From IMG/VR virus record IMGVR_UViG_3300026484_000600: a stretch of DNA of 64,000 nucleotides. One strand, 5' to 3'. The position numbers and the translations under genes were made by a program. The notes beneath the pieces were generated by a model. The model was not told the origin of the DNA. It searched no databases and worked only from the letters and a program-made list of their open reading frames with translations. Shown piece by piece: positions 1,349 through 23,455 of this stretch (the first letter of the stretch is position 1; every line of letters starts with the position of its first letter). Source of the stretch: a virus. Taxonomy: Duplodnaviria; Heunggongvirae; Uroviricota; Caudoviricetes.

Positions 1349-1624
1349 ATGAATTTTGAACCATTAGGAACTAGAGTAGCAGTAAAAGTAGAGGAAGCTC
1401 AAAAAACAACAGCAAGCGGTATTATTATCCCTGATTCATCAAAGGAAACTCCATCATTTGGTAAAATTGTAGCATGTAATGATGATACTAAAGAGGATTT
1501 TGGTGTTGATATTGGAACAACAGTTGTCTTTGGAAAATTTTCCGGTACTGAAATTGAATTAGATAAAGAAAAATTACTAATTATTGAAATGGATGAAATA
1601 TTTGGTATCATTCGTAATGATTAG
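1349..1624 (+). CDS. groES: GroES / T4 gp31-like co-chaperonin (Hsp10)
   Basis: The 91-aa product aligns by eye with E. coli GroES along its whole length (MNxxPLxxRVxVK...SGIIIPDS...G.VxA.G...VKVGDxVxF). RBS AAAGGA upstream. Confidence 0.85.
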   Translation: MNFEPLGTRVAVKVEEAQKTTASGIIIPDSSKETPSFGKIVACNDDTKEDFGVDIGTTVVFGKFSGTEIELDKEKLLIIEMDEIFGIIRND

Positions 1625-2497: not shown

Positions 2498-2522
2498 AGA
2501 GGAATTATACCTCTCTAATTTT
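2496..2522. terminator. Bidirectional intrinsic terminator hairpin between convergent genes
   Basis: agagagg-aattata-cctctct, a perfect 7-bp GC-containing stem flanked by A/T runs. It sits exactly between the + gene ending at 2497 and the - gene ending at 2521. Confidence 0.6.
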
Positions 2523-4020
2523 AAAGTATGATTGATTCAATTTCTTTAATTAAAAAATCTTTATCATCCCATAATTTTGGTATGATTTGAAGCATACTAT
2601 CTGAAAAACCAGCTACTTCAAAAATATCAGATGTTTTTTCAATATCCAATGGTGAACCACCGCCATATCCTTCTAAATTCCAAAATAAAACTTTTACATT
2701 TGGATTGATTTCTTTACGATATGTTTTTAAATAATTTTTGAGTTGGTCACCAATATTACCCCAACTACCATACATTTGCATGTCACTAAAGACCACAATT
2801 TTATCAACATATGTTTTTGTTTTGATTAGTTCTTTTAGTGGAGCAGAAACATCAGTACCACCACCTCTAGTATTTAAATTATTGATAAAATCAAAAGATG
2901 ATAGACCTTTTATATCTCTTCTTGTACATGTATCAGCCCAAGTATAAAACAAACATTTATCATCATTCATACCTACTTTCATAGCAGCTGATAAAACTTT
3001 ACCAATATAAAATGGTGTTTTACGGTCATTACTTGAATAGCCACCCATAGAGCCTGATTCGTCAAGTAAAATAGCCACTTTTTCATCATCGGAAACAATA
3101 TTTGTATTTCCAGCTGAAAGGGCAAATGCTCTTTCAAGTGCCTTTTTAACGATATTCTTCTTAAATTCATCAATAGATAAATCTCTTACTGCATTCCATG
3201 CATCAATAAATCTAAATGGTAATACCATTGATTTTTGTACTCTTTTAGGATCAGTTATAAAATTAGACCAATGTTTTAGGTTATCTTCTGAAATATTACT
3301 TTCCATCAATGTTCTAATATTTTTTAACGCTGCCATATAACCCATTTTACCAGATTTAATTTCTTTCATATACGCTTTAACCCTATCTTCACCAGTTTTA
3401 GAGGCATTGATAGTTTGTGCTGTTTCAACGGCTTTTAATTGGTCTTCAATAACTCTTTTAAAGATAGTTTCATCATCAAAATTTTTAGGTGATGGATGTG
3501 CTAATTTAACTACATCTTTTAATTTCACTTTTGATTTTGGTTGTGCATATTTACGAAATTGATATTCATCAAATTTGGTTTCTAATGCTTTCTTAAAGGC
3601 TCTTCTAAGTGAATTTGGTACCATTTTATTTGGGTTTCTTGTATCCCAGAGTGCTAGCATTTCTGTCATATCATCTGGTCTTACAATAGCTTTTGTTAAT
3701 GCTGGACGTAAAAAATCACTTCCTTTCACATTTTCCGCCAGAATATTAGCCATAAAATGTGAAATGCTTCTAAGTCGACCGTTAGTTCTAGTGAAAACCA
3801 TAGCTTTTGCTACAAATTCAGCATCAGATTTTGATGTAGTAATAAGAGTTTCAATTCTTTTTAAACGTTCGCCTTCTTTTTCATAATATGAATCACCATT
3901 AAGCATAGAGTTTAAAACAACAGTTGCAACTTCTTTTTTTATAGGTCTATCATACGAAACACCCCCAGCCATATTAGTATTAGTTGGAATACTTTTAGTA
4001 CCTTGGTTAAATTTTGCCAT
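2521..4020 (-). CDS. rsr: Ro60-like (TROVE domain + C-terminal vWA/MIDAS) RNA-binding protein, Rsr orthologue
   Basis: The N-terminal region parallels the Ro60 N-terminus (GDSYYEKEGERLKRIETLI vs the human GGTYYIKEQKL..AEALIRLI pattern). The C-terminal vWA has a MIDAS DxSxS motif (LLDESGSMGG). Length 499 aa, typical of bacterial Rsr. Confidence 0.7.
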   Translation of the reverse strand: MAKFNQGTKSIPTNTNMAGGVSYDRPIKKEVATVVLNSMLNGDSYYEKEGERLKRIETLITTSKSDAEFVAKAMVFTRTNGRLRSISHFMANILAENVKGSDFLRPALTKAIVRPDDMTEMLALWDTRNPNKMVPNSLRRAFKKALETKFDEYQFRKYAQPKSKVKLKDVVKLAHPSPKNFDDETIFKRVIEDQLKAVETAQTINASKTGEDRVKAYMKEIKSGKMGYMAALKNIRTLMESNISEDNLKHWSNFITDPKRVQKSMVLPFRFIDAWNAVRDLSIDEFKKNIVKKALERAFALSAGNTNIVSDDEKVAILLDESGSMGGYSSNDRKTPFYIGKVLSAAMKVGMNDDKCLFYTWADTCTRRDIKGLSSFDFINNLNTRGGGTDVSAPLKELIKTKTYVDKIVVFSDMQMYGSWGNIGDQLKNYLKTYRKEINPNVKVLFWNLEGYGGGSPLDIEKTSDIFEVAGFSDSMLQIIPKLWDDKDFLIKEIESIIL

Positions 4021-4334
4021 AGGACAATCTCCTTACTTATTTAAATTTTGTAATATATTATATCCAAAAATACCTTATAATTAAATTAAAAATTGTAAAA
4101 TAAATATATAAGAGATTTAAATTACTCTTTAAATTTTATCTTAGAGATTGACCTAGAGAAAATAACTCTTCTGAAATGTTTTTATCTTAATTGATAACGC
4201 TCTAAATTACTCTACAAGTAAAAAAGATAAATTAATATCATAATTGTTTTTATTTAAGAGGTTCTTTATTACCTTGGGTATAAAATAAAGGTATTATTAT
4301 ATCAGTATATATTTTTATATGCTGGTATTTTTAT

Positions 4335-4715
4335 GGGTCCGAATTGGGATCGATGTTGCTAAAAGAAATTTAAATTGCAAGTAGAGTGATGACTTAATCA
4401 TCAAAAAAGCTTAAATGCAAACACAAAACTTTATATTCCACAGACTGCGAGAGTAGCTGCTTAATCCTCCCTTTGGGAGCCTGGAATCACTCGGTTTATT
4501 AGTTGTCTATTTACTGATAAATAATGGGTGTATAATAAAAATAGATAAGCTGAAGTTAAACTTGATACCTTTAGACGAAAATTATATCGAGTACCTTTAA
4601 TACAGATTTGTTTGGTTATCTAAGTATTAAAGTATTAAGAATCAAACTAAACTTGTAAATGAGATTTAGATGGAAGTAGTGGCAGACCCGAGTTCAATTC
4701 TCGGCGGATCCACCA
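4335..4715 (+). ncRNA. ssrA: tmRNA (SsrA), one-piece, about 381 nt
   Basis: The 5' GGGUCCG pairs with the 3' CGGAUCC-A-CCA, giving a 7-bp acceptor stem with G3:U70 and a CCA end at 4713-4715. A T-arm lies at 4688-4704 (ccgag-UUCAAUU-cucgg). A GGAUCGAUG 5' element resembles the E. coli GGAUUCGACG. The internal tag ORF starts at resume codon GCA (4417) and runs to UAA (4462-4464), encoding ANTKLYIPQTARVAA, followed by a CUCCC...GGGAG hairpin. SmpB is encoded at 23006-23455. Confidence 0.8.
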
Positions 4716-4867
4716 TTAATAAAAATAACCTTATTATATATATTTTTATTATCATTTGTATTATTATTATTATTATTTGATAATTTAGGGATAGCAACTG
4801 TTGCTGAAATGCCTAATATTACAATTACAAAAATCAATTCAATCATACTAAATCCGTAAGATTTCAT
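4694..4867 (-). CDS. Small type IV prepilin-like peptide (57 aa) with a class III signal peptide
   Basis: Unlisted short ORF. MKSYG|FSMIELIFVIVILGISATVAIP carries a prepilin leader ending in Gly, Phe+1, Glu+5 and a hydrophobic helix, then a poly-Asn tail. GAGGA RBS. The ATG is 2 nt after the RnlA stop, suggesting translational coupling. The 3' end overlaps the tmRNA 3' end antisense. Confidence 0.4.
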   Translation of the reverse strand: MKSYGFSMIELIFVIVILGISATVAIPKLSNNNNNNTNDNKNIYNKVIFINGGSAEN

Positions 4868-4869
4868 AA

Positions 4870-6273
4870 TTAATCATCCTCAATTTTTATTTCAAGCTCT
4901 TTGTCAAAACCTAATTTTTTAAGGTATTGTTTAGCCATTTCTAAACGTCTACATTCAAATTTAACTCTATCTATAACTTGTTTTTCAACTTCTTCAATAT
5001 TTTTACCATTTGCGAAACTCATTATATATGGGAAAGAACCTTTATCATCCTTAAATTTTAATGCTAAATCCTTTTTATTTCCATTCCATGAATTTTTAAA
5101 TTTGGTTTCTGCATCAGACACTATATGATTGACATGATTAACTATAATTTCAGAGATGCTATCAATAAAATCCCGTTCTTCTACATTTTCTTCTGGTATC
5201 ATTGCTATAGTATCATCGATTGTTTCATCTAAAACTTTTTCAACAATTTTATGTTCTTTTAAACCATCAGTTAAAATACCATGTAGTGACATATACCAAT
5301 CAGTTTTTACTTTAGCCATCTTACCATTTTCAAATGTGATTACCCAACCTTCTTTATCTTCAACAGTTTCTTTTAATTTAAGTAACTCATCTAATGTATA
5401 TAAAGGTTCTTGTTCAGCTGTTAATACATTGAATGCTTTTACTAATGTATGATCATATATATTTAGATATAAACCGTCATTATTTTCATCCCGTAGTTGT
5501 AGTAATTTAAGTGATGTTTCAGGATATGATAACACTATCTTATTAAACGGAGAAACTATTTCAAAGATTGCAGCATAGCCAAATTCTAAGGTTGCTAAAA
5601 TAAATGCTTTAAGTTTAGGATCTTTTTCAACTATTTCCATAGCTAATTTACATTGTTCCGCTTCAAATGAAAATTTTGTTTTAGCTACTAATTCTCCTTC
5701 TATTAAAAGAAATCTAATTGCAGAACCATCCTCTTTATTTGCAACTCTCACTATTTCTAAATCTTTTACATCTTCATACATCCAAGAATTTTCAGGCTTC
5801 AATGTTGGTAACACCTTTTTATCTAATGATAAAATCTTAAAAAAGTCTCCGTGAGTCTCGTTGTTTCTATCAAATTCAGCAACAGTCATATTTAATTTTA
5901 AATCTATTGCTCTATACGTTTTATCGTTTTCATCAACAAAAAGTTTATTAATATTACAAATTTCAGAATGATTATTAATAGAAAGTTCCATATTTGTTAT
6001 ATTAGTTCCATTTGTTTGACCAATATTAAAAAATTTATCGATGAATAGATATGTTTTCCAATCGGAATTTTGAGCTTTTACAAATGTTATACCTCTTAAT
6101 TCTGTGGCTCTAACCATAGAACCATCTAATTTTGCATCAAAAAAATCACCTGCATTTGCTAAAAAATAAGTACACATTGCAATTTCTGTATTGCCTATTT
6201 TTTGATGTTTCATTTTGAAAGTTTCATTTATTTTTGTGATTTCTAATACTTCATTGTAAGTTAATAAAGCCAT
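4870..6273 (-). CDS. rnlA: RNA ligase 1 (T4 RnlA family, tRNA repair ligase)
   Basis: ELRGITF and KFFNIGQ match T4 Rnl1 ECRGIMF and KFFNLNE. Nucleotidyltransferase motif I KEDGS (T4 K99 EDGSL). 467 aa. Confidence 0.75.
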   Translation of the reverse strand: MALLTYNEVLEITKINETFKMKHQKIGNTEIAMCTYFLANAGDFFDAKLDGSMVRATELRGITFVKAQNSDWKTYLFIDKFFNIGQTNGTNITNMELSINNHSEICNINKLFVDENDKTYRAIDLKLNMTVAEFDRNNETHGDFFKILSLDKKVLPTLKPENSWMYEDVKDLEIVRVANKEDGSAIRFLLIEGELVAKTKFSFEAEQCKLAMEIVEKDPKLKAFILATLEFGYAAIFEIVSPFNKIVLSYPETSLKLLQLRDENNDGLYLNIYDHTLVKAFNVLTAEQEPLYTLDELLKLKETVEDKEGWVITFENGKMAKVKTDWYMSLHGILTDGLKEHKIVEKVLDETIDDTIAMIPEENVEERDFIDSISEIIVNHVNHIVSDAETKFKNSWNGNKKDLALKFKDDKGSFPYIMSFANGKNIEEVEKQVIDRVKFECRRLEMAKQYLKKLGFDKELEIKIEDD

Positions 6274-6358
6274 TTTTAAGACCCTTTATTTTAAATATAT
6301 ATGAATTATATCTAAAAAAGTCTTAAAAAAATATAAAAGGGTGATAATTTTTTAGTGT

Positions 6359-7510
6359 TTATTCGGTTCTGTAAATATAAAAATTTTCAGTTTCTCCGTT
6401 TAATGATACGGTTTCTTCATATTCCTCACCGTCATATGATGCAATATTAGTACCTCTACCATCTGTATCGACAATCCATTCTATAAAAGCATCTTCGTCT
6501 AATAATCCATGTTCTTTTACTATATCAGAAATATCACCGATATTATTTTTCCAGTATTCAACACCATCTTCATCATCAACTCGTGTTTCTGCAAATTCTT
6601 CAATATTATTATCAATATCATCTTCTAAATCTGATTTATATTCTTCTTTTTCACGTTCCCAAGCTTCAATCGCATCATCATATTCCTCTTGAGCTTCTTC
6701 TTCTAAACGATCTTGTTCTTCTTCCCACTCTTCTTCTGCATTTGATAATTCATCTTCCCATTTACTATGCGCTTCTTCCCACTCTTCTTCAGTTTCATAA
6801 TCATTTTTTACCGGTTCATTATCATAAAAATCTGAACTATCAAATTCCTCTCTTTCATAGGTATAATCTGATTCATCTGGTTCTTCGGGCCATTCTGGTT
6901 CAGAAAGAATGCCTAACTCTACCATTTCCTCATGTAATCTATTAATGTATTCATCGGAATTTGTACCTTCGTGTTTGATATCTTCAGCATAACTCATACT
7001 CATTTCAATTTTTGCATCATCAAACCAATCAGTATCAATAAAATTATCTAATGCATGATCCCTAGCCCATTCACTAAATCCATCAAATCCCACATCATCT
7101 AATAAATTTTCAACTCGTTCTTTAGCTATTTCATCAGCTTCATCATCAGTTAAAACTAAATATTTTTCTCTTCCAGATGTAAAAGTATATGGGTCTCTAT
7201 CTTCTTCTATATCTACAAAATCATATCCAGAATATTGATGTAATGCTAAGGCTCTCATAGGATCTGAAAAATCACTTAATGTAACAAAATTTTTTAATTC
7301 ATCAACTAAATCATCATCAATATTGTGGTCAGTCATATCAATTTCATCATCTGAAAAAAATAATTTTCCGGCTTCAATCCATTTTCCTAAAAATTCACCT
7401 AATTCTGTTGAAATTTCTAAATCATCAGGAATAAACTCGCCTTTATCTATTCTTCCTGATACTTCTATATCCCCATACTCTGTTTTTATTAATATATTAT
7501 CAACTCGCAT
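6359..7510 (-). CDS. Highly acidic hypothetical protein
   Basis: 383 aa, extremely D/E-rich with repeated EEWEE/DDxDD segments. No catalytic motif. Confidence 0.5.
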   Translation of the reverse strand: MRVDNILIKTEYGDIEVSGRIDKGEFIPDDLEISTELGEFLGKWIEAGKLFFSDDEIDMTDHNIDDDLVDELKNFVTLSDFSDPMRALALHQYSGYDFVDIEEDRDPYTFTSGREKYLVLTDDEADEIAKERVENLLDDVGFDGFSEWARDHALDNFIDTDWFDDAKIEMSMSYAEDIKHEGTNSDEYINRLHEEMVELGILSEPEWPEEPDESDYTYEREEFDSSDFYDNEPVKNDYETEEEWEEAHSKWEDELSNAEEEWEEEQDRLEEEAQEEYDDAIEAWEREKEEYKSDLEDDIDNNIEEFAETRVDDEDGVEYWKNNIGDISDIVKEHGLLDEDAFIEWIVDTDGRGTNIASYDGEEYEETVSLNGETENFYIYRTE

Positions 7511-7769
7511 CGTATTGATCTCTATTTAAAGAATATTCTAAGATATTAATTGAATCGCCGCCATTATCATCAAATGAAACTCTTAGATTATCTGATGTCT
7601 CTCTACCAATCCATATCGCATCTTTAAGATTCTGTCTTGGTCCTTCGCCTATAAACTCAAGAAAAATTTCTTCACCCTGGCTTCTAAATGATATATCTTG
7701 AGATAATTCTTTTTTTGATTTAATTTTTTTTAATGTCTCTTCCATTTCTTTTACTGTTGAAAATTTCAT
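7500..7769 (-). CDS. Hypothetical protein
   Basis: 89-aa ORF in the operon, overlapping its upstream neighbour by 11 nt. Confidence 0.4.
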   Translation of the reverse strand: MKFSTVKEMEETLKKIKSKKELSQDISFRSQGEEIFLEFIGEGPRQNLKDAIWIGRETSDNLRVSFDDNGGDSINILEYSLNRDQYDAS

Positions 7770-7807
7770 AAATATTCTCCATATTCTATTTTTAATATAT
7801 TTATACT

Positions 7808-8329
7808 CTAAATCATAAAATGGTTTAATCTTTTTAAAATTTTAGAGACTGTCTTTTCAGTTAGACCTATGTATGGATTTGTTTCAAAAACTCTATCTCT
7901 AAATATTTCCCTCATATTATTACTAACAAATTCAGAATTTCCAGTAATATCAAATAATTCATCATCTAAAATAATAAAATCTTTCACTTTGAAATATTCA
8001 ACAGCATCTAAAATTTGTTTGCCCCTACCATAAGATTTTCTATCTGTTCCACCAATAATTCTATTAGTATATTTAAATCCAAAGTTTTCTAAAGCTTTAA
8101 CTGTATTAACTGAATAATACCACGAACTCGAGATTATTACTTTCCAATCATTATTTTCAAGGATTTTATTTAATAAAGTGACTTTATCATAATCCATACC
8201 CATTAATCCATTCCATTTATTTTGAGTACCTTTAACTGGATTTTGTATATATCCATTTGGAAAAGTAAATGATTTTTGAAGATGATAATTATTTAAAACG
8301 CCGTCAATATCTAAAAATAACGCGTTCAT
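7808..8329 (-). CDS. HAD-superfamily phosphatase (possible polynucleotide/nucleotide phosphatase)
   Basis: HAD motif I FLDIDGVL, motif II IISSS, motif IV ILDDE. 173 aa. Confidence 0.55.
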   Translation of the reverse strand: MNALFLDIDGVLNNYHLQKSFTFPNGYIQNPVKGTQNKWNGLMGMDYDKVTLLNKILENNDWKVIISSSWYYSVNTVKALENFGFKYTNRIIGGTDRKSYGRGKQILDAVEYFKVKDFIILDDELFDITGNSEFVSNNMREIFRDRVFETNPYIGLTEKTVSKILKRLNHFMI

Positions 8330-8475
8330 TCAACTACTTCAATAGTAAAATCTTTATGATTTTCATAAAATGCTGATATGATGTTTAAGTCATGAACAGA
8401 CAAACCACATTCCCAAATGTTAAGTATTTTAAATTCGCCTGTTTTAATACAAGTTATTTTTAATTCATCAAACAT
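8326..8475 (-). CDS. Small hypothetical protein (49 aa)
   Basis: Unlisted short ORF with a strong TAAGGAG RBS. Its stop overlaps the ATG of the HAD phosphatase gene (ATGA). Confidence 0.35.
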   Translation of the reverse strand: MFDELKITCIKTGEFKILNIWECGLSVHDLNIISAFYENHKDFTIEVVE

Positions 8476-8917
8476 AGTTGCTCCTTAGTAATTGATTTAT
8501 TTTATTGAATCTATCATTGATTTTTGTAACAATCAAACGTTGGTTTTGAGAAATTGGTGGTATTTCATTTAAATTAAACCATTTCAATTCAAAAACCTCT
8601 CGTTTATCTAATTTAATTCGATTATATAAATATTTATCCCAATGAATAAAGTATAGTTCAATATTTTTCTTTTTATTATTTTGTTTGACGGAAAAATCTA
8701 AATCTTCTTTAGCGATCGATATACCTATTTCTTCCTGAACTTCTCTCAAACAACATTCAATTTTAGTTTCGTTTGGTTCAATTTTTCCTTTAATGAAATC
8801 AAAATTGTCATTTTTTCTAGATGATTTCATTAAAAGAATAGAGACGCCGTTGTTAGATAGTAAATAAGGTATAATTCCAATGGATATAGGTTTCATATGG
8901 TTCACTTTATATAGCAT
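8468..8917 (-). CDS. Nudix hydrolase
   Basis: Nudix box GKIEPNETKIECCLREVQEEIGI (Gx5Ex7REUxEExGU). Confidence 0.7.
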   Translation of the reverse strand: MLYKVNHMKPISIGIIPYLLSNNGVSILLMKSSRKNDNFDFIKGKIEPNETKIECCLREVQEEIGISIAKEDLDFSVKQNNKKKNIELYFIHWDKYLYNRIKLDKREVFELKWFNLNEIPPISQNQRLIVTKINDRFNKINQLLRSNYV

Positions 8918-9185
8918 TATTAGTACGGTTTAATGTTTTGTGCGCAAGTTTTATAAACTCAAATGACACATCATCAGGATGAATTTTAAAACCATATTCA
9001 TCTTCAAATTTTTTAGTCCATAAACTATAATGATTTCTTAATTCCATACCTAAACTAAAATGGTATATTATTAAATCGTTTTCATCGGTATTAATAAAAT
9101 CATTTAGTGGTTTAAAATCTTTAAGGTCATCTGATAGTAGAAGTTTCACAACCTCTACTAAATCTTCTGGAGGATTAGAAATCAT
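8907..9185 (-). CDS. Hypothetical protein
   Basis: 92-aa ORF, operon context. Confidence 0.4.
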   Translation of the reverse strand: MISNPPEDLVEVVKLLLSDDLKDFKPLNDFINTDENDLIIYHFSLGMELRNHYSLWTKKFEDEYGFKIHPDDVSFEFIKLAHKTLNRTNNAI

Positions 9186-10324
9186 TTATATTTCCTAGTA
9201 ATAATTTCCACTTTGTCGTCTGAAAATTGAGTAAGTTTTTCAGTCCAAGTAATAATTCTAGAGCGTTCTACAAATTCATTTTGAGCATAATCCATAGTTC
9301 CTTCAGAAATAGGTTTCAGGTATTTTTCTTTTTTAACTAAAATACCGTATTTAAATTTATCTTCGACTTCTTCCCAATCTTTACCAGTAGTTTCTTTACA
9401 GTATTTGACCTGTTCAAGACCATTTTTTCCTAATAGAGATTTATGAGAACAGTATGTTTGAGCATACATTGATCTAGAGTTCTTCTCAGAATCTCGAATT
9501 CGCCACATGATACTATTAAATGCTTCTTCTTTGGATGATACACCATAAACTCTGGCATCAAACCATGCATTGCCTACTTTTTCTTCCATAGTTTTAATGT
9601 ATTTCATAATATCTGGATTATTGGTATCAATTTCTCTATTTTCTAATTTTTGATCATATTCTTCAAACTTTTTTTCTAAAAAATTAGAAAAATGCTTATT
9701 AAACTGCATAGTAGTATAGGCCGCTATTAAAGAAGTTAATTTCTGAATTCTACCACCAAAAATCTGTTCATTTGTTGTCTCTACTTTTTTAATAATATAT
9801 TTTGATAGTACTTCTAATGATTTAGTTTCTGTTTGTATGTTTCTATTTTGCCAACAACATCGATCTATAATTTCGTCATTAGTATCAGAAACTATCCAAA
9901 AGTTGATACTAAAATATTTATCCTCCGTATCTTCATAAATTATATCTAATGAGCCAAGTAAGTTATACTCTTTATCATAAACTTTATATGATACTTCTTC
10001 TTCATCATTAAGAAAAAATAAATCTTTAACTTCAATAGGTATTAATCTTTCTTTGAATTGAGGAGCAAATACTAATGAAATTTCATCTGATTGTGTGTAA
10101 CCTGTTACTGCTCCAAATTTTTCAACGAGATTTTTGGTTGTTTCTTCCATTGTATTAGATAATATGTCATCAAATGGTTTTTTCATACCTTTTGTGTATT
10201 TACTAAATTTATGACCATCGATTCTACAAATGATAAAATCTCTTGGATCAATTACTGATTCAAATTCTTTTTCATAACCTTTAAGCCTAGTTCCTAAAGA
10301 TTCCTCTCTCATACTTTTTTTCAC
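9182..10324 (-). CDS. Thg1-like protein (tRNA-His guanylyltransferase family, 3'-5' polymerase) with a C-terminal extension
   Basis: The N-terminal 250 aa track Thg1: FIICRIDGHKFSKYTK (the RIDGxxFxxF motif), KPFDD, GYTQSDEISLVF (Thg1 GESDEYSF). 380 aa total, about 130 aa longer than Thg1. Confidence 0.7.
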   Translation of the reverse strand: MKKSMREESLGTRLKGYEKEFESVIDPRDFIICRIDGHKFSKYTKGMKKPFDDILSNTMEETTKNLVEKFGAVTGYTQSDEISLVFAPQFKERLIPIEVKDLFFLNDEEEVSYKVYDKEYNLLGSLDIIYEDTEDKYFSINFWIVSDTNDEIIDRCCWQNRNIQTETKSLEVLSKYIIKKVETTNEQIFGGRIQKLTSLIAAYTTMQFNKHFSNFLEKKFEEYDQKLENREIDTNNPDIMKYIKTMEEKVGNAWFDARVYGVSSKEEAFNSIMWRIRDSEKNSRSMYAQTYCSHKSLLGKNGLEQVKYCKETTGKDWEEVEDKFKYGILVKKEKYLKPISEGTMDYAQNEFVERSRIITWTEKLTQFSDDKVEIITRKYK

Positions 10325-10333
10325 AGTTATCCT

Positions 10334-10537: not shown

Positions 10538-10550
10538 ACTATTTCCTTTT

Positions 10551-10871: not shown

Positions 10872-10900
10872 AATGTATTATAATGTAATTATACTTAAAA

Positions 10901-14070: not shown

Positions 14071-14151
14071 ATTAGTTCTCCTTAGTTATTCGTTCTAACT
14101 TATGTTAGATTCAATAACAGTTTTAATAATACACTAAGTGTGTTTTTATTT

Positions 14152-15195: not shown

Positions 15196-17886
15196 TTATA
15201 ATCTTGGGTCGACACTTTCTTCTTTTTCATTTTCAAATAATAGATTGGCTATAATTTGTATTTGTTCTTTACTACCCATAGGAGCTTTAAGCATTTCTTC
15301 TCCTAATTTATACTCTGATATAGAAAGTCTTAATTTTTTAGAAATATTTTTTTGATTTAATAATCTATTAAATTTAATAGGGAATTTATAATCGTATCCA
15401 TAAATAATAGAAAGATATTCTTCATTTCTCACTTTTAAATATGGTGCAATCCAAGACTCTAATAATTTCACTTCGGGTTTTATTACGCAACCCTCCATAT
15501 TTTGATTTCGCACCAAATTATCATACCATTTTTCAGCTTTAATCAAATAATTTTTATCATCAAAATCAACAATATGTATATTATCTGAATTTAATAATTT
15601 AAAGTGTTTACTAGGAGTTAAATCCAAATTAATTATATTATTGTTTGATATTGCTTTCAATAATCTAAAACCTTTAAAATCAGTATTTGTATCTTCTCCA
15701 TAAAGGGTTATTTGTTTATTAAAAATTTTCCAAGCTTTTTTGTGGTCACTTAAAGGTATAAATCTATCAATTTCAAATTTTAAATCTTTATAAGAGTGAT
15801 ACTTGTGTCCATATTTTTTAACCAACTCTTTTTTAGCTAAAATATTCTTATCTTTTAAAAATTCTGATTTGTTAAATTCATCCTTTAAACTTATAAAAGC
15901 CTTATCAAATCCATTATCAAACAGAAAGTCAATTTCTGTTTGAATAGCTATATCCGCAGTCTTAAAATGGGTATCAATCAAACCTTTTCCTAAAAGAGCC
16001 CATGGTAATAATTCGCCATCTATAATTATCTCATCAGCATTATACATATCAAAAATATGCTTGTATTCTACTAATTTAGATGAGAATAATTCGGTTAAAT
16101 CTTCTCTTATTTTATATCCATTTCTACTTGTAGCATAACATTTTTTAATATTATCTTTAAAGAGATATAGTTGTGCTCTGGAACCCATATATTTAGGTTG
16201 TAGCACTACACTATCTACTTTATCCTTAAAATAATTGAGACCCATTTCTAAAGATTCTAGTGAATTATTTTCGATATTTTTATTTGTAGGGGAAATAGTA
16301 CCTCCTATATAACCTATACCATTTTTTACTATGTAATCTAATCTTCTTTGGTTATATGGATTTAAATCTTCAATAGATACTTCTTTCATAGCTTTACCTA
16401 TATCTTCAAACAGATTATTTCCAAAGTCGTTTCTTGCACTCTTAGGAGATAATGATTTTACACTTTGAATAAATGCTTTGCCATAACCTATACTATATCC
16501 AGTTAATTTTCCACCATATACACAACCTGTATCAATACAAACCTTATTTTTAAAAGATCTAACAGATGACTGACCCATATGACCGAATATATGAACCGGA
16601 TGGTTATTAATTGCTTCTTCTTTCAAATATGATGTTAATTCATCATTAGTCTTATCTTTGTTTTTACTTCTACTAGCACATTTATATTGGTGTTTTAATG
16701 AAATTCGATCCATCTTTTCAAGATATTTAACTTCACATGGTGCATGAGTAACTATAAAGCCTCTTTTATTTAATCCTATAAATTTAACCCATCCTTTCAT
16801 ATTATGAAAAATATCTAAAAACATAGATTTTAGCTCTTCATTTTTCTCTAGTAAAATTGCTGTATTATAGTATCTTTTTTTCTGATCTAATCGTTCTGGA
16901 GTAATTTCTAAATCTTTGTGATTTGTTATCCATTTCCAAACCATCTCTTCATGATTGCCCAATATTAATTGAAATCGATCTTGAAATTTTATCATATTTT
17001 TGTGTATGAATTTTATAGTTTCAGTTAAATCTTCTTCTGATGATTTATCTATTAAATCACCTGCAAAAATTAGTCCTATATTTTTTGTTTTAACAGTATC
17101 TATAATTTCATTGTCTTTAATTATAAAACCATATTTTTCAAGTAATTGTTTTAATTCTTGAATACATCCATGAACATCACCAATAGTAATCCAATCATAA
17201 GTACTATTTACTATTCTGTCAGTATATTTTTTCCAATCCCATACATCTACACTATAAACAGGCTTTAACATTGTAGGTGTTAAATCATATCGATTTTCCT
17301 GTTCCACTTCCAAAAGAAAATCTTTATTTTTAATTTTATGAATATTTTTATATATCCCTTTTTTTAATGTTTTTAATGTCTCCGTTTTTAATCTTTTTAT
17401 ATGTTTAGAAATAATTTTCCCATTGGTACTTGGACGTTGATATAGGCTTTCAGAAAAATTCTTTTGGTATTCATCAATATTTTTATAATCGAAAACTATA
17501 ATATCTACATTATAATTATTATCTTTTGCTATATCTAACACGTCGTTTCTAAATTTTTCGCTTAATCCGGTTGTATCTAAAATAACAAATTCTGCATTGA
17601 TTGGATAACTGGTAACAGCTCTTAATTTTGTAAATAGTATTTCGAATGCTTGTGTTGAACTCTCAGTCATAATTTCATCTATTTTACCATAGTTATAACC
17701 CAAAATATCTTTTCTAATATTATCGGAACTAATATATTGTATATTTGTCTTTAAATTATTATTAACATTGCCTTTATATTTTTGTAATGAAGGTATTAGA
17801 ATTTCATTAGCAAACGTCGTTTTACCAGAACCACTAGGTCCGACAAGCATTATTATGGTATGTACTTGGGTTTTAATTTTATTCAT
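15196..17886 (-). CDS. pnkp: Bacterial-type polynucleotide kinase-phosphatase Pnkp (kinase + metallophosphoesterase + ligase domains)
   Basis: N-terminal P-loop kinase (VGPSGSGKTTFAN). Central calcineurin-like phosphatase motifs (GDVHG, GDLIDKS, GNHE). C-terminal about 450 aa with a KYMGSR lysine motif, consistent with the Pnkp ligase domain. 896 aa. Confidence 0.7.
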   Translation of the reverse strand: MNKIKTQVHTIIMLVGPSGSGKTTFANEILIPSLQKYKGNVNNNLKTNIQYISSDNIRKDILGYNYGKIDEIMTESSTQAFEILFTKLRAVTSYPINAEFVILDTTGLSEKFRNDVLDIAKDNNYNVDIIVFDYKNIDEYQKNFSESLYQRPSTNGKIISKHIKRLKTETLKTLKKGIYKNIHKIKNKDFLLEVEQENRYDLTPTMLKPVYSVDVWDWKKYTDRIVNSTYDWITIGDVHGCIQELKQLLEKYGFIIKDNEIIDTVKTKNIGLIFAGDLIDKSSEEDLTETIKFIHKNMIKFQDRFQLILGNHEEMVWKWITNHKDLEITPERLDQKKRYYNTAILLEKNEELKSMFLDIFHNMKGWVKFIGLNKRGFIVTHAPCEVKYLEKMDRISLKHQYKCASRSKNKDKTNDELTSYLKEEAINNHPVHIFGHMGQSSVRSFKNKVCIDTGCVYGGKLTGYSIGYGKAFIQSVKSLSPKSARNDFGNNLFEDIGKAMKEVSIEDLNPYNQRRLDYIVKNGIGYIGGTISPTNKNIENNSLESLEMGLNYFKDKVDSVVLQPKYMGSRAQLYLFKDNIKKCYATSRNGYKIREDLTELFSSKLVEYKHIFDMYNADEIIIDGELLPWALLGKGLIDTHFKTADIAIQTEIDFLFDNGFDKAFISLKDEFNKSEFLKDKNILAKKELVKKYGHKYHSYKDLKFEIDRFIPLSDHKKAWKIFNKQITLYGEDTNTDFKGFRLLKAISNNNIINLDLTPSKHFKLLNSDNIHIVDFDDKNYLIKAEKWYDNLVRNQNMEGCVIKPEVKLLESWIAPYLKVRNEEYLSIIYGYDYKFPIKFNRLLNQKNISKKLRLSISEYKLGEEMLKAPMGSKEQIQIIANLLFENEKEESVDPRL

Positions 17887-18795: not shown

Positions 18796-19673
18796 TCTGG
18801 AAATCTCCTAATAATTCTTTCCCAAACATCTTCAGGAATCTCTGATTGAAAATCATTTTTTAATGCGAATTTAATATTCTTTTCAGTCATCCATAAAAGA
18901 TCTACATCTTCTTTTTCAAAGCGCTCATATAAGAATGGACTAGCCCAAACTATAATTCGATCATCTTTTATTAAATATCCATTATTTGCAGCTTCTATAT
19001 ATTCTAAATATTCAAAAATTATATCTTCACGATCTATTCCTTTTATTTCAAGAATATTAAAAGAGTTTTTAAAATGTCCTAAAAGTTTTTCTTTTCCATC
19101 ATATTGTATCTTATCTTCAACATAGAAAATACTTTGATGGAACCCTTTACCATAGGTATCCATAACATCATAATTCATTTCGAGGGGTATATTATTGTAA
19201 AAAATATCAGTAATTACAATGTCTCCAGTACCGATATAATCTGTATCTTTTGCCTCTATTACTAATAAATCTTTATTAAAATCGTCGGTATTTTTTAAAA
19301 TTTCTGTTTCAAAAAAAATACCTTTTTCTATTGATACTGATGAAATATACCAACCATCAGATAAAAAATTATCATCATTAATATTAAGGGTTAAATCACT
19401 AATATTAATAGTATCATATTTTGAATATTCGTATTCATTAACATTAATAGAAATACTACCATCAATAGCACAACTGGAAATATGTTCTATATCATCAAAA
19501 TCATAATATTGTCTTTCCCATCCACTACTACTGAATAATGTATCAAAATGGCCAATAATTTCATTGTAATCAAAACGTCTAAGAAGTTCTTTTATATTGT
19601 TGATATGGAGCTTATTGAGCTTACCACAGCAATATTCTCCACCATATCCACCAAATGTTAATACCATTTTCAT
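18783..19673 (-). CDS. Hypothetical protein
   Basis: 296-aa ORF between hen1 and pnkp. No motif recognised. Confidence 0.45.
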   Translation of the reverse strand: MKMVLTFGGYGGEYCCGKLNKLHINNIKELLRRFDYNEIIGHFDTLFSSSGWERQYYDFDDIEHISSCAIDGSISINVNEYEYSKYDTINISDLTLNINDDNFLSDGWYISSVSIEKGIFFETEILKNTDDFNKDLLVIEAKDTDYIGTGDIVITDIFYNNIPLEMNYDVMDTYGKGFHQSIFYVEDKIQYDGKEKLLGHFKNSFNILEIKGIDREDIIFEYLEYIEAANNGYLIKDDRIIVWASPFLYERFEKEDVDLLWMTEKNIKFALKNDFQSEIPEDVWERIIRRFPEWLI

Positions 19674-20923
19674 ACCCTTTTAATTATACAACCAATACTT
19701 GTAGATATACCATTGATATTATCGCCTATTTCTATAAATTCAAAGGATAGGTTATCATTATTAAAATTAGACATAAAACTTTTAAATTCATCAAATGTAG
19801 GTTCCCAATCATGATCATCATGTCGCATTTCTCCACCTAATTCGTAAAATACGTTAAAGTCTTTATTTGGTACTGTAATGATAAACGTATCAAAATTAAT
19901 AGATGTTAGCACTAATTCTATTAATCTTTTTGATTCAACTTTTGGCATATGTTCGATAACTTCGGTTAGTATTACATCTACTAACTCATTATCGTAATCT
20001 TTTATAAAATCTTCTAGACTATTAAAGAGATTAATATTTGTAATTTCTTTTTTTGAAGCTTTTATCTTGACTGACTCTAATAGATTAGGATTAATATCAA
20101 TGGCGTTATAAAAATATTTTTCTATTTTTTTAGAAAAATCTATTGCATAAAATCCTTCTCCACACCCAATATCAATAATCGATTTATTAAATGATAATAA
20201 ACGCTCTATTCTATCTTTTCGTTGCATAGCCGTATTACCATAAGCCATATTGATATTATATCTTTTTGATTCTTCAAGTAATTGTTTATATTTTTTAAAT
20301 TGATTTTTACTTTTAATAAGATTTCTACTTACTAAATAACGTATAAAGAATGGTGCATCTAATCGATTCATAGCATTTAGGTATTTTTCAATATTTGAAT
20401 TATCTAAATGTACATAGTCGTTACTTGATAATGCAATAAAAATCATCATAAGATTAATATAATTTAATAACATGAACCAACTATTTTCAGTTGTCACCTT
20501 AATAGTATAGTTTTTCCCTACTTGTTCAGTAATTTCAATTTCAAAATCAGGGAAATATTTCTTAAAATCCATTAACTGTTTTATTCTTTTAATTTCGAGT
20601 AAATTAATATAAAAATATTTCGGGTTTTTTATATCTAATTCTGATTCTTCTCTAACAGTACTTGAAAAAAATTCACTTATTGCATTGATAATAAACATGG
20701 GCGAGTTGTATTTAGAAATATTTAGATAATCAAATTCTTGTGATCCAAAGGATACATCATTATCAGCATCCTTAAAATAGATATTAAAGTCGGTACCATT
20801 ATGAGAGTACCAGGTAAATGCAGTACCTTTACGTATACTTCTTATTTGCATAGATGAATTTGGATTTTTTTTAATAATGTATCCAAAATTTGGATCATCA
20901 GAATGTAGCTGTAAAATAGCCAT
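19670..20923 (-). CDS. hen1: Hen1-like RNA 3'-terminal 2'-O-methyltransferase (C-terminal Rossmann MTase)
   Basis: SAM-binding motif I IIDIGCGEGFYAIDF in the C-terminal half of a 417-aa protein. Bacterial Hen1 has the same architecture and partners with Pnkp, which lies 1.8 kb downstream in the same orientation. Confidence 0.55.
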   Translation of the reverse strand: MAILQLHSDDPNFGYIIKKNPNSSMQIRSIRKGTAFTWYSHNGTDFNIYFKDADNDVSFGSQEFDYLNISKYNSPMFIINAISEFFSSTVREESELDIKNPKYFYINLLEIKRIKQLMDFKKYFPDFEIEITEQVGKNYTIKVTTENSWFMLLNYINLMMIFIALSSNDYVHLDNSNIEKYLNAMNRLDAPFFIRYLVSRNLIKSKNQFKKYKQLLEESKRYNINMAYGNTAMQRKDRIERLLSFNKSIIDIGCGEGFYAIDFSKKIEKYFYNAIDINPNLLESVKIKASKKEITNINLFNSLEDFIKDYDNELVDVILTEVIEHMPKVESKRLIELVLTSINFDTFIITVPNKDFNVFYELGGEMRHDDHDWEPTFDEFKSFMSNFNNDNLSFEFIEIGDNINGISTSIGCIIKRV

Positions 20924-23005: not shown

Positions 23006-23455
23006 TTAGAATTTTTTTAATGTTCTTTCCATATCTCGCTTGATATCACGCTCTTTAATAGTTTGTTTTTTATTATATGTTTTTTTGCCCTTAGCTAATG
23101 CCAACTGTACTTTTATTTTTTTTGTACCTTCTCGTTGATAAATTGATAAAATAATTAAAGTCAGTCCCTGTTCTTTTAATTTGCTTTTGAGTTTTAAAAT
23201 CTCTTTCTTATGCATTAATAATTTTCTATCTTGCACTTCATCAAATATTGCATAGGATGGTATGTATGTTGGATTTGAAATATGAGCTTGAGTTAAAAAT
23301 AACTCATTATTTTTCATTTTGACGTAGCTTTCTTTAAGAGAAATCGTACTATCTCTTACAGCTTTTACTTCACCACCCGACAGTACAATCCCTGCTTCAA
23401 ATGTTTCTATGATTTCATAATTAAATCTAGCTTTTTTATTTTGAGCATAAGTCAT
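23006..23455 (-). CDS. smpB: SsrA-binding protein SmpB
   Basis: NKKARFNYEIIETFEAGIVLSGGEVKAVR matches E. coli SmpB [29 protein letters not shown]. The C-terminal LALAKGKKTYNKKQTIKERD matches VAKGKKQHDKRSDIKERE. 149 aa. Confidence 0.85.
   Translation of the reverse strand: MTYAQNKKARFNYEIIETFEAGIVLSGGEVKAVRDSTISLKESYVKMKNNELFLTQAHISNPTYIPSYAIFDEVQDRKLLMHKKEILKLKSKLKEQGLTLIILSIYQREGTKKIKVQLALAKGKKTYNKKQTIKERDIKRDMERTLKKF

What the first reader, a model, noticed from the sequence alone, without database searches (positions are those of the whole stretch)
4335..4715. Phage-encoded trans-translation system: a tmRNA gene here and SmpB 18 kb away
The sequence shows a one-piece tmRNA with a G3:U70 acceptor stem, a T-arm, a CCA end and a tag reading frame. 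The frame runs from GCA at 4417 to UAA at 4462 and encodes ANTKLYIPQTARVAA, with the usual AA C-terminus. A bona fide SmpB is at 23006-23455. tmRNA alone is known from a few large phages. A matched tmRNA plus SmpB pair in a T4-like genome would let the phage run, or retarget, ribosome rescue on its own. This matters if the host uses mRNA-cleaving toxins or tRNA depletion as defence. Whether the tag is a degron in the host is unknown.
Basis: seen in the sequence. Interest (0 to 1): 0.8.

Follow-up and report, generated by a model that had tools for sequence, protein, structure and literature searches.

The report
Phage-encoded tmRNA and SmpB ribosome-rescue pair

Summary
ARAGORN and Rfam RF00023 (114 bits, gathering score 47) both call a full-length one-piece tmRNA at 4335-4715 (+), with the tag ANTKLYIPQTARVAA. 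A full-length SmpB (Pfam 165 bits) lies at 23006-23455, on the minus strand.

Seven related metagenomic contigs carry a homologous tmRNA. In the six whose neighbouring genes were seen, it sits in the same place. Across the eight sequences, 39 of 81 predicted pairs show compensatory changes and G3:U70 is invariant. The tag frame keeps its peptide through synonymous changes. SmpB is under purifying selection (pN/pS 0.125) and belongs to a clade of about 40 metagenomic homologues. The best bacterial match found was 54-56% identical.

Both genes sit in a conserved RNA-repair region: Ro60, Rnl1, HAD, NUDIX, Thg1-like, Pnkp and Hen1. I read the pair as a working phage trans-translation system that keeps ribosomes available during infection, probably as part of a response to RNA damage. 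That role is inferred, not shown.

tmRNA and SmpB genes in huge phages were reported in 2020 (PMC7162821), and about 2% of phage genomes encode a tmRNA (PMC9004378). The pair is a new member of a known kind. "T4-like" holds only distantly, and the host is unknown.

The parts
4335..4715 (+). One-piece tmRNA (ssrA) gene, 381 nt, with encoded CCA
   Evidence: ARAGORN. Rfam RF00023 at 114.1 bits, full model. Homologues on 7 related contigs, with covariation.
4335..4341 (+). Acceptor stem 5' strand GGGUCCG; G3 at 4337 pairs with U at 4709 (the alanine identity pair)
   Evidence: Sequence. G:U is kept in 8 of 8 sequences, and 4 of 7 acceptor pairs show compensatory changes (helix 1).
4417..4464 (+). 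Tag reading frame, GCA resume codon to UAA stop, encoding ANTKLYIPQTARVAA
   Evidence: ARAGORN. The frame is kept in all 8 relatives, with synonymous changes at Leu, Ile, Val and Ala codons.
4688..4704 (+). T-arm (CCGAG / UUCAAUU / CUCGG)
   Evidence: Sequence. All 5 pairs show compensatory changes and are 100% paired (helix 12).
4705..4715 (+). Acceptor stem 3' strand CGGAUCC, discriminator A (4712) and encoded CCA (4713-4715)
   Evidence: Sequence; Rfam alignment.
4279..4286 (+). Possible -10 element TATAAAAT, 49 nt upstream of the mature 5' end (weak)
   Evidence: Six of 8 relatives have TGTATAAT 50-70 nt upstream of their tmRNA. TTGTATAAT is enriched in the window, 15 sites against 4.4 expected. 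The window's own variant is not enriched and the promoter scan did not call it.
23006..23455 (-). smpB, 149 aa, full length including the basic C-terminal tail
   Evidence: Pfam PF01668 at 165.4 bits. PDB 1p6v, E 4.9e-33. pN/pS 0.125 against the closest relative. Conserved position next to a UvsW_N gene in relatives.
2521..4020 (-). Ro60/Rsr-like protein (TROVE plus vWA), neighbour of the tmRNA gene
   Evidence: Pfam TROVE at 59.7 bits. The same neighbour is seen in L011, L012, L014, L161 and L162.
4870..6273 (-). T4 Rnl1-family RNA ligase, neighbour of the tmRNA gene
   Evidence: Pfam RNA_lig_T4_1 at 51.2 bits; 85 homologues.
7808..10324 (-). HAD_SAK_2 phosphatase (7808-8329), NUDIX (8468-8917) and Thg1-like enzyme (9182-10324)
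   Evidence: Pfam. The same genes in the same order are seen in L011; subsets appear in L012 and L014.
15196..17886 (-). Pnkp-like RNA repair enzyme (kinase, metallophosphoesterase and ligase domains)
   Evidence: Pfam PNKP_ligase at 108.7 bits and AAA_33. PHROG phosphatase and kinase hits. Conserved downstream of smpB in relatives.
19670..20923 (-). Hen1 RNA 3'-terminal 2'-O-methyltransferase
   Evidence: Pfam Hen1_N at 221.9 bits. Conserved between smpB and Pnkp in relatives.

Best explanation
The window comes from a phage-like genome of about 221 kb that belongs to a family of uncultured jumbo phages with contigs of 221-496 kb. The genome encodes its own working trans-translation pair.

Proposed mechanism, by analogy with bacterial tmRNA-SmpB:
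1. The tmRNA is transcribed, probably from a host-type promoter.
2. Host RNase P and exonucleases trim it.
3. Host AlaRS charges it with alanine through the G3:U70 pair.
4. The phage SmpB binds it, and EF-Tu delivers it to ribosomes stalled on broken or stop-less mRNAs.
5. Translation resumes at GCA (4417) and ends at UAA (4462). The ribosome is released and the truncated protein carries ANTKLYIPQTARVAA, whose ...VAA end probably makes it a substrate for host ClpXP-type proteases.

The pair sits in a conserved block of RNA-repair genes: Ro60, Rnl1, HAD, NUDIX, Thg1-like, Pnkp and Hen1. The most likely role is therefore to keep translation going when RNA is being cut during infection, whether by host anticodon nucleases or mRNA-cleaving toxins, or by the phage's own shut-off of the host. 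In this view the repair enzymes mend tRNAs and tmRNA-SmpB clears ribosomes stranded on cut mRNAs.

Shown here: the gene identities, their completeness, conservation, covariation, purifying selection and synteny.
Inferred: expression, charging, pairing of the phage SmpB with the phage tmRNA, degron activity, and the link to defence.
For: Identity and completeness:
- tmRNA.
- SmpB. The C-terminal tail (GKKTYNKKQTIKERDIKRDMERTLKKF) is conserved across the clade.

Fold under selection:
- Across 8 homologues, 93.5% of cells pair, against 38-44% when the partners are slid.
- 39 of 81 pairs show compensatory changes, and 0 of 500 shuffles reach the observed values.
- G3:U70 is kept in 8 of 8.

Tag under selection as a peptide:
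- The pattern A-x-x-x-L-Y-[IV]-P-x-x-x-x-V-A-A is kept through synonymous codon changes.

Sequence conservation:
- The tmRNA differs at 15 of 382 positions (3.9%) from its closest relative, while synonymous sites of smpB differ by 31%.
- smpB has pN/pS 0.125 against that relative and 0.22 against a more distant one.

Co-occurrence and synteny:
- Both genes are seen on the window's genome, on the 224 kb IMG/VR contig and on the 496 kb NCBI contig.
- The order smpB ... Hen1 ... Pnkp, and the order Thg1 - NUDIX - HAD - Rnl1 - tmRNA - Ro60, are conserved.

Not a recent capture from a host:
- About 40 metagenomic SmpB homologues are 56-92% identical. The best match in the sampled bacterial genomes is 54% or less, spread over many phyla.
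- The 23 bacterial tags found next to those smpB genes do not resemble the phage tag.

Phage setting:
- The closest relative is an IMG/VR contig.
- PHROG families, UvsW, topoisomerase II, PhoH and homing endonucleases are present.
- The anti-CBASS gene Acb1 is at 61846-62367.

Precedent:
- Huge phages encode tmRNAs and SmpB (PMC7162821).
- The jumbo phage XacN1 encodes PNKP, Hen1 and Thg1 (PMC5852040).
- That T4 Pnk and Rnl1 repair tRNA cut by the host nuclease PrrC is established knowledge, not tested here.
Against: - There is no expression or functional data.
- No structural genes lie in the window or in the about 10 kb seen beyond each end. The phage assignment therefore rests on a relative's listing in IMG/VR and on gene content.
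- The window's own upstream -10-like motif departs from the TGTATAAT seen in relatives and was not called by the promoter scan. No terminator was found.
- The host is unknown, so recognition of the tag by host proteases and of the tmRNA by host AlaRS and EF-Tu is assumed.
- The SmpB tail has YNKK where most homologues, including some in its own clade, have YDK[KR]. The effect of this is unknown.
- The defence link rests only on gene neighbourhood. The genes are 18 kb apart and on opposite strands, so they are not one operon.
Confidence: 0.72

Rival explanations
1. The pair redirects or blocks rescue instead of simply supplying it. The phage tmRNA-SmpB would compete with the host system. [quoted passage not shown]
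For: - The tag pattern is conserved within the family and is unlike the 23 bacterial tags sampled.
- The SmpB clade is separate from the bacterial ones found, which would allow a private pairing.
- A phage tmRNA variant (DS6A, without a tag frame) is reported to inhibit the host tmRNA (PMC11915505).
- Selective tagging of host proteins has been suggested for phage Melnitz (PMC9004378).
Against: - The tag ends in V-A-A, and natural bacterial tags ending in AVAA were seen here. An Ala-Ala C-terminus is the usual ClpX signal; this is established knowledge, not tested here.
- The tag frame, resume codon and stop codon are all canonical.
- Nothing in the sequence shows exclusivity between the phage SmpB and the phage tmRNA.
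Confidence: 0.15
2. The genes are passive cargo. They were picked up from a bacterium and are carried with little benefit to the phage, as with the many ssrA fragments left by phage integration at tmRNA genes.
For: - ssrA is a common integration site, and fragments of it occur in prophages (PMC9004378; PMC11915505).
- Several 'phage' database records with smpB look like host DNA at prophage edges (for example smpB at positions 34-462 of StauST398-5).
Against: - The gene is full length, not a 3' fragment.
- No integrase turned up among the window ORFs that were annotated.
- Both genes persist, in the same places, across relatives whose tmRNAs are only 64-72% identical.
- There is strong covariation, and smpB is under purifying selection.
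- No close bacterial donor was found; the best match is 54% or less.
Confidence: 0.06
3. The contig is not a phage. It would be a large plasmid, another mobile element, or a tiny AT-rich symbiont genome, where tmRNA and SmpB would be ordinary housekeeping genes.
For: - No capsid, portal, tail or terminase genes were seen in 64 kb or in the about 10 kb flanks.
- Some large putative plasmids carry similar sets of translation genes (PMC7162821).
- GC content is 27% and the size of about 221 kb resembles reduced symbiont genomes.
Against: - There are no ribosomal protein genes among the annotated ORFs, and no rRNA or tRNA gene in 64 kb.
- Gene content is typical of T4-superfamily and jumbo phages: UvsW, topoisomerase II, PhoH, dCTP deaminase, MazG-like, homing endonucleases, Acb1 and many phage-only PHROG families.
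- The best protein matches are to jumbo and T4-like phages.
- The close relative is listed in IMG/VR.
Confidence: 0.05

Closest known systems
Bacterial tmRNA-SmpB trans-translation (Rfam RF00023, Pfam PF01668)
   Same: - The RNA has the same one-piece architecture: a tRNA-like domain with G3:U70, a T-arm and CCA, then a long helix 2, a tag frame opening with GCA, a stop codon in a hairpin, and pseudoknot-region hairpins.
- SmpB has the same full-length fold and a basic C-terminal tail.
   Different: - The pair is encoded by a phage-like genome.
- SmpB is 54-56% identical at most to any bacterial homologue found.
- The 15-residue tag with an LY[IV]P core matches none of the bacterial tags sampled.
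- The two genes are 18 kb apart and lie among RNA-repair genes.
tmRNA and SmpB genes of huge phages (Al-Shayeb et al. 2020, PMC7162821; Lak megaphages)
   Same: Large uncultured phage genomes carry translation-termination and rescue genes, including tmRNAs and SmpB. SmpB ORFs are present in at least 8 of the published genomes and in Lak phages.
   Different: - This is a different lineage. SmpB is 40-44% identical to those phage copies and there is no nucleotide match.
- I could not confirm that any one published genome has both genes. No tmRNA lies within 20 kb of smpB in four of them.
- Here the pairing is shown in several related genomes, together with a conserved RNA-repair neighbourhood.
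Phage tmRNAs without SmpB (Melnitz and pelagimyophages with two-piece tmRNA, phage G, mycobacteriophages)
   Same: A complete tmRNA gene in a lytic-type phage. It is often downstream of an early, host-type promoter, and its proposed role is to maintain the hijacked translation machinery (PMC9004378, PMC12484599).
   Different: - In the papers read here, those phages are described with a tmRNA gene but no phage smpB. This one also brings SmpB.
- This tmRNA is one-piece. No riboswitch was detected.
T4 Pnk/Rnl1 tRNA repair and bacterial Pnkp-Hen1 RNA repair
   Same: Rnl1-family ligase, Pnkp (kinase, phosphatase, ligase) and Hen1 are present and conserved. The jumbo phage XacN1 also has PNKP, Hen1 and Thg1 (PMC5852040).
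   Different: Those systems mend cut tRNAs. tmRNA-SmpB deals with the ribosomes stranded as a consequence. I did not find a described case where the two are linked in one conserved phage region, but my literature search was limited.

Membership tests
tmRNA (standard one-piece form, RF00023) | Score above the curated covariance-model threshold over the whole model | tested here: met
   114.1 bits against a gathering score of 47, model positions 1-374. The permuted model stays below threshold, 29.7 against 47.
tmRNA (standard one-piece form, RF00023) | tRNA-like domain: 7-bp acceptor stem made by the 5' and 3' ends, with G3:U70, a T-arm, discriminator A and a CCA end | tested here: met
   Sequence. 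G:U is kept in 8 of 8 homologues. Acceptor and T-arm pairs show compensatory changes (helices 1 and 12).
tmRNA (standard one-piece form, RF00023) | Internal tag reading frame that starts with an alanine resume codon and ends ...AA plus a stop | tested here: met
   GCA at 4417 to UAA at 4462, encoding ANTKLYIPQTARVAA. The frame is conserved in 8 of 8, with synonymous changes.
tmRNA (standard one-piece form, RF00023) | Pseudoknot ring (PK1-PK4) between the tag and the tRNA-like domain | tested here: inconclusive
   The hairpin parts of the pseudoknot regions are predicted and covary (helices 5 and 8-11). The second, knot-forming stems were not written out or tested.
tmRNA (standard one-piece form, RF00023) | Charged with alanine and active in trans-translation | not testable with these tools
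   Needs aminoacylation and tagging assays.
SmpB (PF01668) | Full-length match to the family profile above the curated cut-off | tested here: met
   165.4 bits against a cut-off of 27; residues 4-148 match profile positions 2-143 of 143.
SmpB (PF01668) | Sequence similarity to solved SmpB structures, including the C-terminal tail needed for decoding-centre entry | tested here: met
   15 PDB sequences match. 1p6v aligns over query residues 3-147, E 4.9e-33. The tail IKERDIKR[DE]M is conserved in the clade. No 3D model was built.
SmpB (PF01668) | Binds its tmRNA partner | not testable with these tools
   The only evidence is co-occurrence on the window's genome and on three related contigs, the third inferred from matching contig lengths.
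T4-like phage (Straboviridae or the wider T4 superfamily) | T4-type core structural and replication genes (gp23 capsid, gp20 portal, gp17 terminase, gp43 polymerase and others) | tested here: inconclusive
   Only accessory and replication genes are in view: UvsW_N, topoisomerase II, DnaB-like helicase, PhoH and Acb1. The best matches to T4-superfamily and jumbo phages are about 26-34% identical. No structural genes lie in the window or its flanks.
Pnkp-Hen1 RNA repair system | A three-domain Pnkp (kinase, 2',3'-phosphatase, ligase) together with a Hen1 methyltransferase | tested here: met
   The 896-aa ORF has AAA_33 kinase and PNKP_ligase domains. Its phosphoesterase domain is seen by PHROGs and by tblastn. 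Hen1_N scores 221.9 bits and a methyltransferase domain is present. The two genes are about 1.8 kb apart, not adjacent.

The most novel reading that the evidence does not exclude
In this phage family, tmRNA-SmpB is not a spare copy of a host function. It would be a private, co-evolved rescue system forming one arm of a conserved defence against host RNA-cutting toxins. Pnkp-Hen1, Rnl1 and the Thg1-like enzyme would mend cut tRNAs, Ro60 would handle damaged structured RNAs, and the phage tmRNA-SmpB would clear ribosomes stranded on cut mRNAs. The family-specific tag (LY[IV]P...VAA) would let the phage control what happens to the truncated proteins.
Probability: 0.25. Interest if true: 0.65.

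Novelty: new member of a known kind. Interest (0 to 1): 0.36.

Why it matters
If the pair works as inferred, some large phages bring ribosome rescue as well as tRNAs and RNA-repair enzymes. They could then keep translating while the host, or the phage itself, is cutting RNA. The family offers a clean test case: a complete tmRNA with a distinctive conserved tag, a matching SmpB, and a conserved repair neighbourhood. It could show whether trans-translation matters in the contest between phages and host RNA-targeting defences. It does not open a new category, because tmRNA and SmpB genes in huge phages are already on record.

Tried and rejected
- **Nucleotide searches against deposited phages.** Searches with the tmRNA and with the first 25 kb of the window found nothing.
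- **Short patterns in IMG/VR.** 14-16-base patterns gave mostly chance hits; only the known 224 kb relative was real.
- **Longer pattern in metagenomes.** A 29-nt pattern gave only four loci, representing three distinct tmRNA sequences, one of them new.
- **Host inference.**
  - Cluster names were empty.
It gave SmpB matches of 54% or less across many phyla and no member of the phage clade, so there was no host signal.
  - Bacterial tags near those genes do not resemble the phage tag.
  - From memory, the tag seemed to resemble Campylobacterota tags. I could not test this, so I do not rely on it.
- **Y RNA next to Ro60 in the window.** Rfam found nothing at a permissive threshold. The conserved non-coding blocks seen in relatives are missing from the window apart from a 64-nt remnant.
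- **Both genes in one published huge-phage genome.** No tmRNA lies within 20 kb of smpB in LR756501, LR745206, LR756504 or Lak-A1. I did not scan the whole genomes.
- **Structural genes beyond the window ends.** None were found in the about 10 kb on each side.
- **Integration-site remnant.** Rejected, because the gene is full length and conserved.
- **Reduced symbiont genome.** Rejected on gene content.
- **3D model of SmpB.** I did not build one. The profile and PDB sequence matches were already decisive.
Full report
**1. The observation**

ARAGORN finds one RNA gene in the 64 kb window: a tmRNA at exactly 4335-4715 (+) with the tag ANTKLYIPQTARVAA. Rfam's tmRNA model RF00023 matches the same coordinates from end to end (model positions 1-374) at 114.1 bits against a gathering score of 47, E 8e-44. 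The permuted-tmRNA model stays below its threshold, so this is the standard one-piece form.

Read directly from the sequence:
- The 5' strand GGGUCCG (4335-4341) pairs with CGGAUCC (4705-4711), placing G3 (4337) opposite U (4709).
- The T-arm is 4688-4704.
- The discriminator A is at 4712, and CCA is encoded at 4713-4715.
- The tag frame runs from GCA at 4417 to UAA at 4462-4464.

The ORF at 23006-23455 is a full-length SmpB. It scores 165.4 bits against Pfam PF01668 (E 9.5e-49). The best solved structure is Aquifex SmpB 1p6v at E 4.9e-33, aligned through the C-terminal tail. It lies on the minus strand, 18.3 kb from the tmRNA.

**2. What genome this is**

- GC content is about 27% throughout.
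- Nothing in the deposited-phage collection matches at the nucleotide level.
- The exact SmpB and RNA ligase proteins are on record on a 221.5 kb contig.
- A relative with 92-94% protein identity is IMG/VR contig IMGVR_UViG_3300026521_000471, 224 kb.
- More distant relatives sit on contigs of 262 kb and 496 kb.

Gene content in the window is typical of phages:
- UvsW N-terminal domain, topoisomerase II, DnaB-like helicase, a second helicase and PhoH.
- dCTP deaminase, a MazG-like protein, a sigma-factor-like protein and homing endonucleases.
- Several phage-only PHROG families.
- An Acb1 anti-CBASS gene at 61846-62367.

The best protein matches to isolated phages are about 26-34% identical. 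They go to jumbo and T4-superfamily phages: Atu_ph07, RaK2/K64-1, KVP40-like Vibrio phages, pf16 and XacN1. No structural genes lie in the window or in the roughly 10 kb beyond each end. "T4-like" is therefore only distantly supported, and the phage assignment is strong but indirect.

**3. Relatives and covariation**

I used the neighbouring RNA ligase as an anchor and also ran a 29-nt pattern scan. These gave seven further distinct tmRNA homologues: L002, L011, L012, L014, L161, L162 and L157.

Five of them reach Rfam's threshold, at 77-115 bits, plus a second copy of the L014 sequence in L158. ARAGORN missed three (L161, L162, L157). I recognised L157 by eye; it has a 6-nt T-loop and was not called by Rfam.

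Pairwise identity among the first five sequences aligned (window, L002, L011, L012, L014) is 64-84%, apart from the 96% window-L002 pair.

On the MAFFT alignment, RNAalifold predicts 81 pairs, and 39 of them have compensatory changes. Counting on that structure:

| Measure | Result |
|---|---|
| Cells that form a standard pair | 93.5% |
| Same, with the 3' partners slid by 1-3 columns | 38-44% |
| Shuffles (of 500) that reach the observed value, any measure | 0 |
| Acceptor stem pairs with compensatory changes | 4 of 7 |
| G3:U kept | 8 of 8 sequences |
| T-arm pairs with compensatory changes | 5 of 5 |

The structure was derived from these same sequences, which flatters the slid-partner control. 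However, it agrees with the independent Rfam consensus.

**4. The tag**

The tags in the family are:
- ANTKLYIPQTARVAA
- ANTKLYIPQSARVAA
- AEAKLYIPQSTEVAA
- AEAKLYIPQSARVAA
- ANTNLYVPSAMKVAA
- ANAKLYVPTAMRVAA
- AKTTKLYIPQSAKVAA

Synonymous changes occur at Leu (CTT, CTA, TTA), Ile (ATT, ATC), Val (GTA, GTT) and Ala (GCT, GCC) codons. The peptide is therefore under selection, not only the RNA. The core L-Y-[IV]-P and the end V-A-A never change.

An Ala-Ala end is the usual ClpX signal. This is established knowledge and was not tested here. Natural bacterial tags ending in AVAA turned up in my own sample. None of the 23 bacterial tags recovered next to bacterial smpB genes resembles the phage tag.

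**5. SmpB**

About 40 metagenomic homologues are 56-92% identical. Below that, the hits include MAGs labelled Bacilli or Mollicutes, at 56% identity or less. A scan of one genome per bacterial species found no clade member. Its best matches were 54% or less, spread over Spirochaetes, Desulfobacterota, Chlamydiae, Bacilli, Campylobacterales and others.

The clade shares the invariant residues of bacterial SmpB and a conserved tail, IKERDIKR[DE]M. Against the closest relative, pN/pS is 0.125 with pS 0.31; against the 496 kb relative it is 0.22. Over the same divergence the tmRNA changed at only 15 of 382 positions, which shows constraint on the RNA.

**6. Neighbourhood**

The tmRNA lies between a Ro60/TROVE gene (2521-4020) and an Rnl1-family RNA ligase (4870-6273). 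The order of features in the window, all on the minus strand except the tmRNA, is:
- Ro60 (TROVE plus vWA), 2521-4020
- tmRNA, 4335-4715 (+)
- Rnl1-family RNA ligase, 4870-6273
- HAD_SAK_2 phosphatase, 7808-8329
- NUDIX, 8468-8917
- Thg1-like enzyme, 9182-10324
- NAD synthase, a radical SAM enzyme and an isochorismatase-like protein, 11560-14070
- Pnkp with kinase, phosphatase and ligase domains, 15196-17886
- Hen1, 19670-20923
- smpB, 23006-23455
- a UvsW_N gene, 23942-24490

The two sub-orders are conserved in relatives. One is UvsW_N ... smpB ... Hen1 ... Pnkp. The other is Thg1 - NUDIX - HAD - Rnl1 ... tmRNA - Ro60.

Both genes are seen directly on the window's genome and on the 224 kb and 496 kb contigs. 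For the 84.5 kb contig I infer co-occurrence from matching contig lengths of the SmpB and Rnl1 hits.

**7. Expression signals**

Six of the eight tmRNA genes have TGTATAAT 50-70 nt upstream of the mature 5' end. TTGTATAAT is enriched in the window, 15 sites against 4.4 expected with 0 of 100 shuffles reaching 15, and by inspection many sites lie just upstream of genes. This looks like the family's standard host-type extended -10 promoter.

The window's own tmRNA has a variant, GGGTATAAAAT (4276-4286). That variant is not enriched and the promoter scan did not call it, so evidence for transcription of this particular copy is weak. No intrinsic terminator was found.

**8. Mechanism**

Shown: a complete tmRNA and a complete SmpB that are constrained and inherited together within a family of jumbo phages, inside a conserved RNA-repair region.

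Inferred, by analogy with bacterial trans-translation:
- Host enzymes process the tmRNA, and host AlaRS charges it through G3:U70.
- The phage SmpB binds it.
- The complex rescues ribosomes stalled on cut or stop-less mRNAs.
- The rescued proteins receive a tag that ends in VAA and is probably a degron.

Inferred from the neighbourhood and from T4 precedent (Pnk and Rnl1 repairing tRNA cut by PrrC, which is established knowledge): the pair is part of a response to RNA damage during infection.

Rivals considered:
- redirecting or blocking host rescue;
- passive cargo;
- not a phage at all.

The last two are disfavoured by full-length genes, conservation, selection, the lack of a close bacterial donor, and gene content.

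**9. What is known**

- Al-Shayeb et al. 2020 list tmRNAs and SmpB among the translation genes of huge phages (PMC7162821). At least eight of their deposited genomes annotate an SsrA-binding protein.
- SmpB ORFs are also present in Lak megaphages.
- Buchholz et al. 2022 counted tmRNA genes in 402 of 18,146 phage genomes (PMC9004378).
- Phage G has a tmRNA, and the paper mentions no SmpB (PMC12484599).
- Mycobacteriophage DS6A has a tag-less tmRNA that inhibits the host's (PMC11915505).
- The jumbo phage XacN1 has PNKP, Hen1 and Thg1 (PMC5852040).

The kind is therefore known. What this case adds is a distinct lineage in which the pairing, a family-specific tag and an RNA-repair neighbourhood are all conserved. 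I could not confirm that any single published genome has both genes; no tmRNA lies within 20 kb of smpB in four of them.

**10. Verdict**

The pair is real and well supported, and it is a new member of a known kind. Interest is moderate to low, at 0.36.

The most interesting unresolved point lies in relatives, not in the window. Between the tmRNA gene and Ro60 they carry a conserved non-coding stretch of about 1 kb, which includes a candidate Y-RNA-like element. It is described under the things noticed in passing.

Noticed in passing
Relatives: L011 9764-10797, L014 11089-12079, L012 8656-9798, L161 9232-10509. Window remnant at 4143-4203.: In relatives the space between the tmRNA gene and the Ro60 gene is 1.0-1.3 kb. 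It has no ORF over 50 aa, a higher GC content (about 31%) and many conserved blocks. Rfam finds nothing there. The window and L002 have only 314 nt here and keep a 64-nt remnant; the rest is absent from the whole window. This may be one or two unknown non-coding RNAs, lost in the window's lineage.
   Followed up: partly
L011 10418-10703, L014 11700-11980, L012 9356-9664, L161 10066-10332 (all + strand, just upstream of the Ro60 gene): This is a candidate RNA of about 270-310 nt. In three of the four loci a TTGTATAAT motif lies upstream of it. Its 5' and 3' ends form a 13 + 7 bp stem interrupted by an internal loop. The stem is 100% paired in 4 sequences, with 7 compensatory pairs, against 30-51% when the partners are slid. 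A long terminal stem next to a Ro60 gene is the layout of Y RNAs, so this may be a phage Y-RNA-like partner of Ro60. With only four sequences the evidence is thin.
   Followed up: partly
window 4694-4867 (-): A 57-aa ORF carries a type IV pilin-like N-terminal methylation motif (Pfam N_methyl, E 7e-6). Its last 22 nt overlap the 3' end of the tmRNA gene on the opposite strand. Similar small N_methyl ORFs lie beside the tmRNA in L011 and L014, the latter with two copies. Their function is unknown.
   Followed up: partly
window 2521-20923 (-), plus 45502-45999 (-): RNA-repair and RNA-quality genes are unusually dense here: Ro60, Rnl1, HAD_SAK_2, NUDIX, Thg1-like, Pnkp and Hen1, plus a second polynucleotide kinase-like ORF at 45502-45999. 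RlaP and NADAR genes lie just beyond the right end of the window.
   Followed up: partly
window 11560-14070 (-); L248 1-1353: NAD-related genes sit side by side: NAD synthase, a radical SAM enzyme and an isochorismatase (nicotinamidase-like) protein. An NAPRTase lies just outside the window. This could be a phage pathway to rebuild NAD+ against NAD-depleting host defences. I did not test this.
   Followed up: no
window 61846-62367 (-): PHROGs labels this ORF 'RNA ligase' (phrog_755), but precomputed Pfam assigns it to Acb1, the anti-CBASS cyclic-nucleotide phosphodiesterase (PF23474). It is probably a counter-defence gene.
   Followed up: no
window 32490-34667 (-); also L007 19205-20459, L248 1405-2160, L249 2428-3006: The window ORF is a 725-aa protein that matches diguanylate-cyclase / signal-transduction (gmr-type) proteins. 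PAS, GGDEF and EAL domains are annotated on an ORF of relative L007. Further GGDEF genes lie nearby in this genome. Cyclic-di-GMP signalling genes are unusual in a phage.
   Followed up: no
window 1349-1624 (+); L248 7062-8687: The genome encodes a GroES-like Cpn10 in the window and a GroEL-like Cpn60 just outside it.
   Followed up: no
window, 15 sites (for example 1318, 14159, 31192, 48901, 60877): TTGTATAAT occurs 15 times against 4.4 expected. By inspection, many sites lie just upstream of genes on the matching strand. It is probably the family's host-type extended -10 promoter.
   Followed up: partly
L157 9790-10169 (identical sequence in L160); L161 8851-9231; L162 9838-10223: ARAGORN misses three of the eight tmRNA homologues. 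Rfam also fails to call L157, which has a 6-nt T-loop (CCGGC-UUCGAA-GCCGG). L161 does not encode the CCA end, and L162 starts with a G1:U pair. Surveys that rely on ARAGORN alone may undercount phage tmRNAs.
   Followed up: partly
L002 about 11547-11560 (3' end of its tmRNA): The closest relative has a 6-nt insertion at the 3' end that duplicates the acceptor end (…UCCACCAUCACCA…). Its meaning is unknown.
   Followed up: no
window 23942-25091 (-): The UvsW N-terminal domain lies on a 182-aa ORF that is followed by a separate 202-aa ORF, and the same layout appears in relatives. No complete UvsW helicase gene is evident here; the second ORF was not annotated.
   Followed up: no
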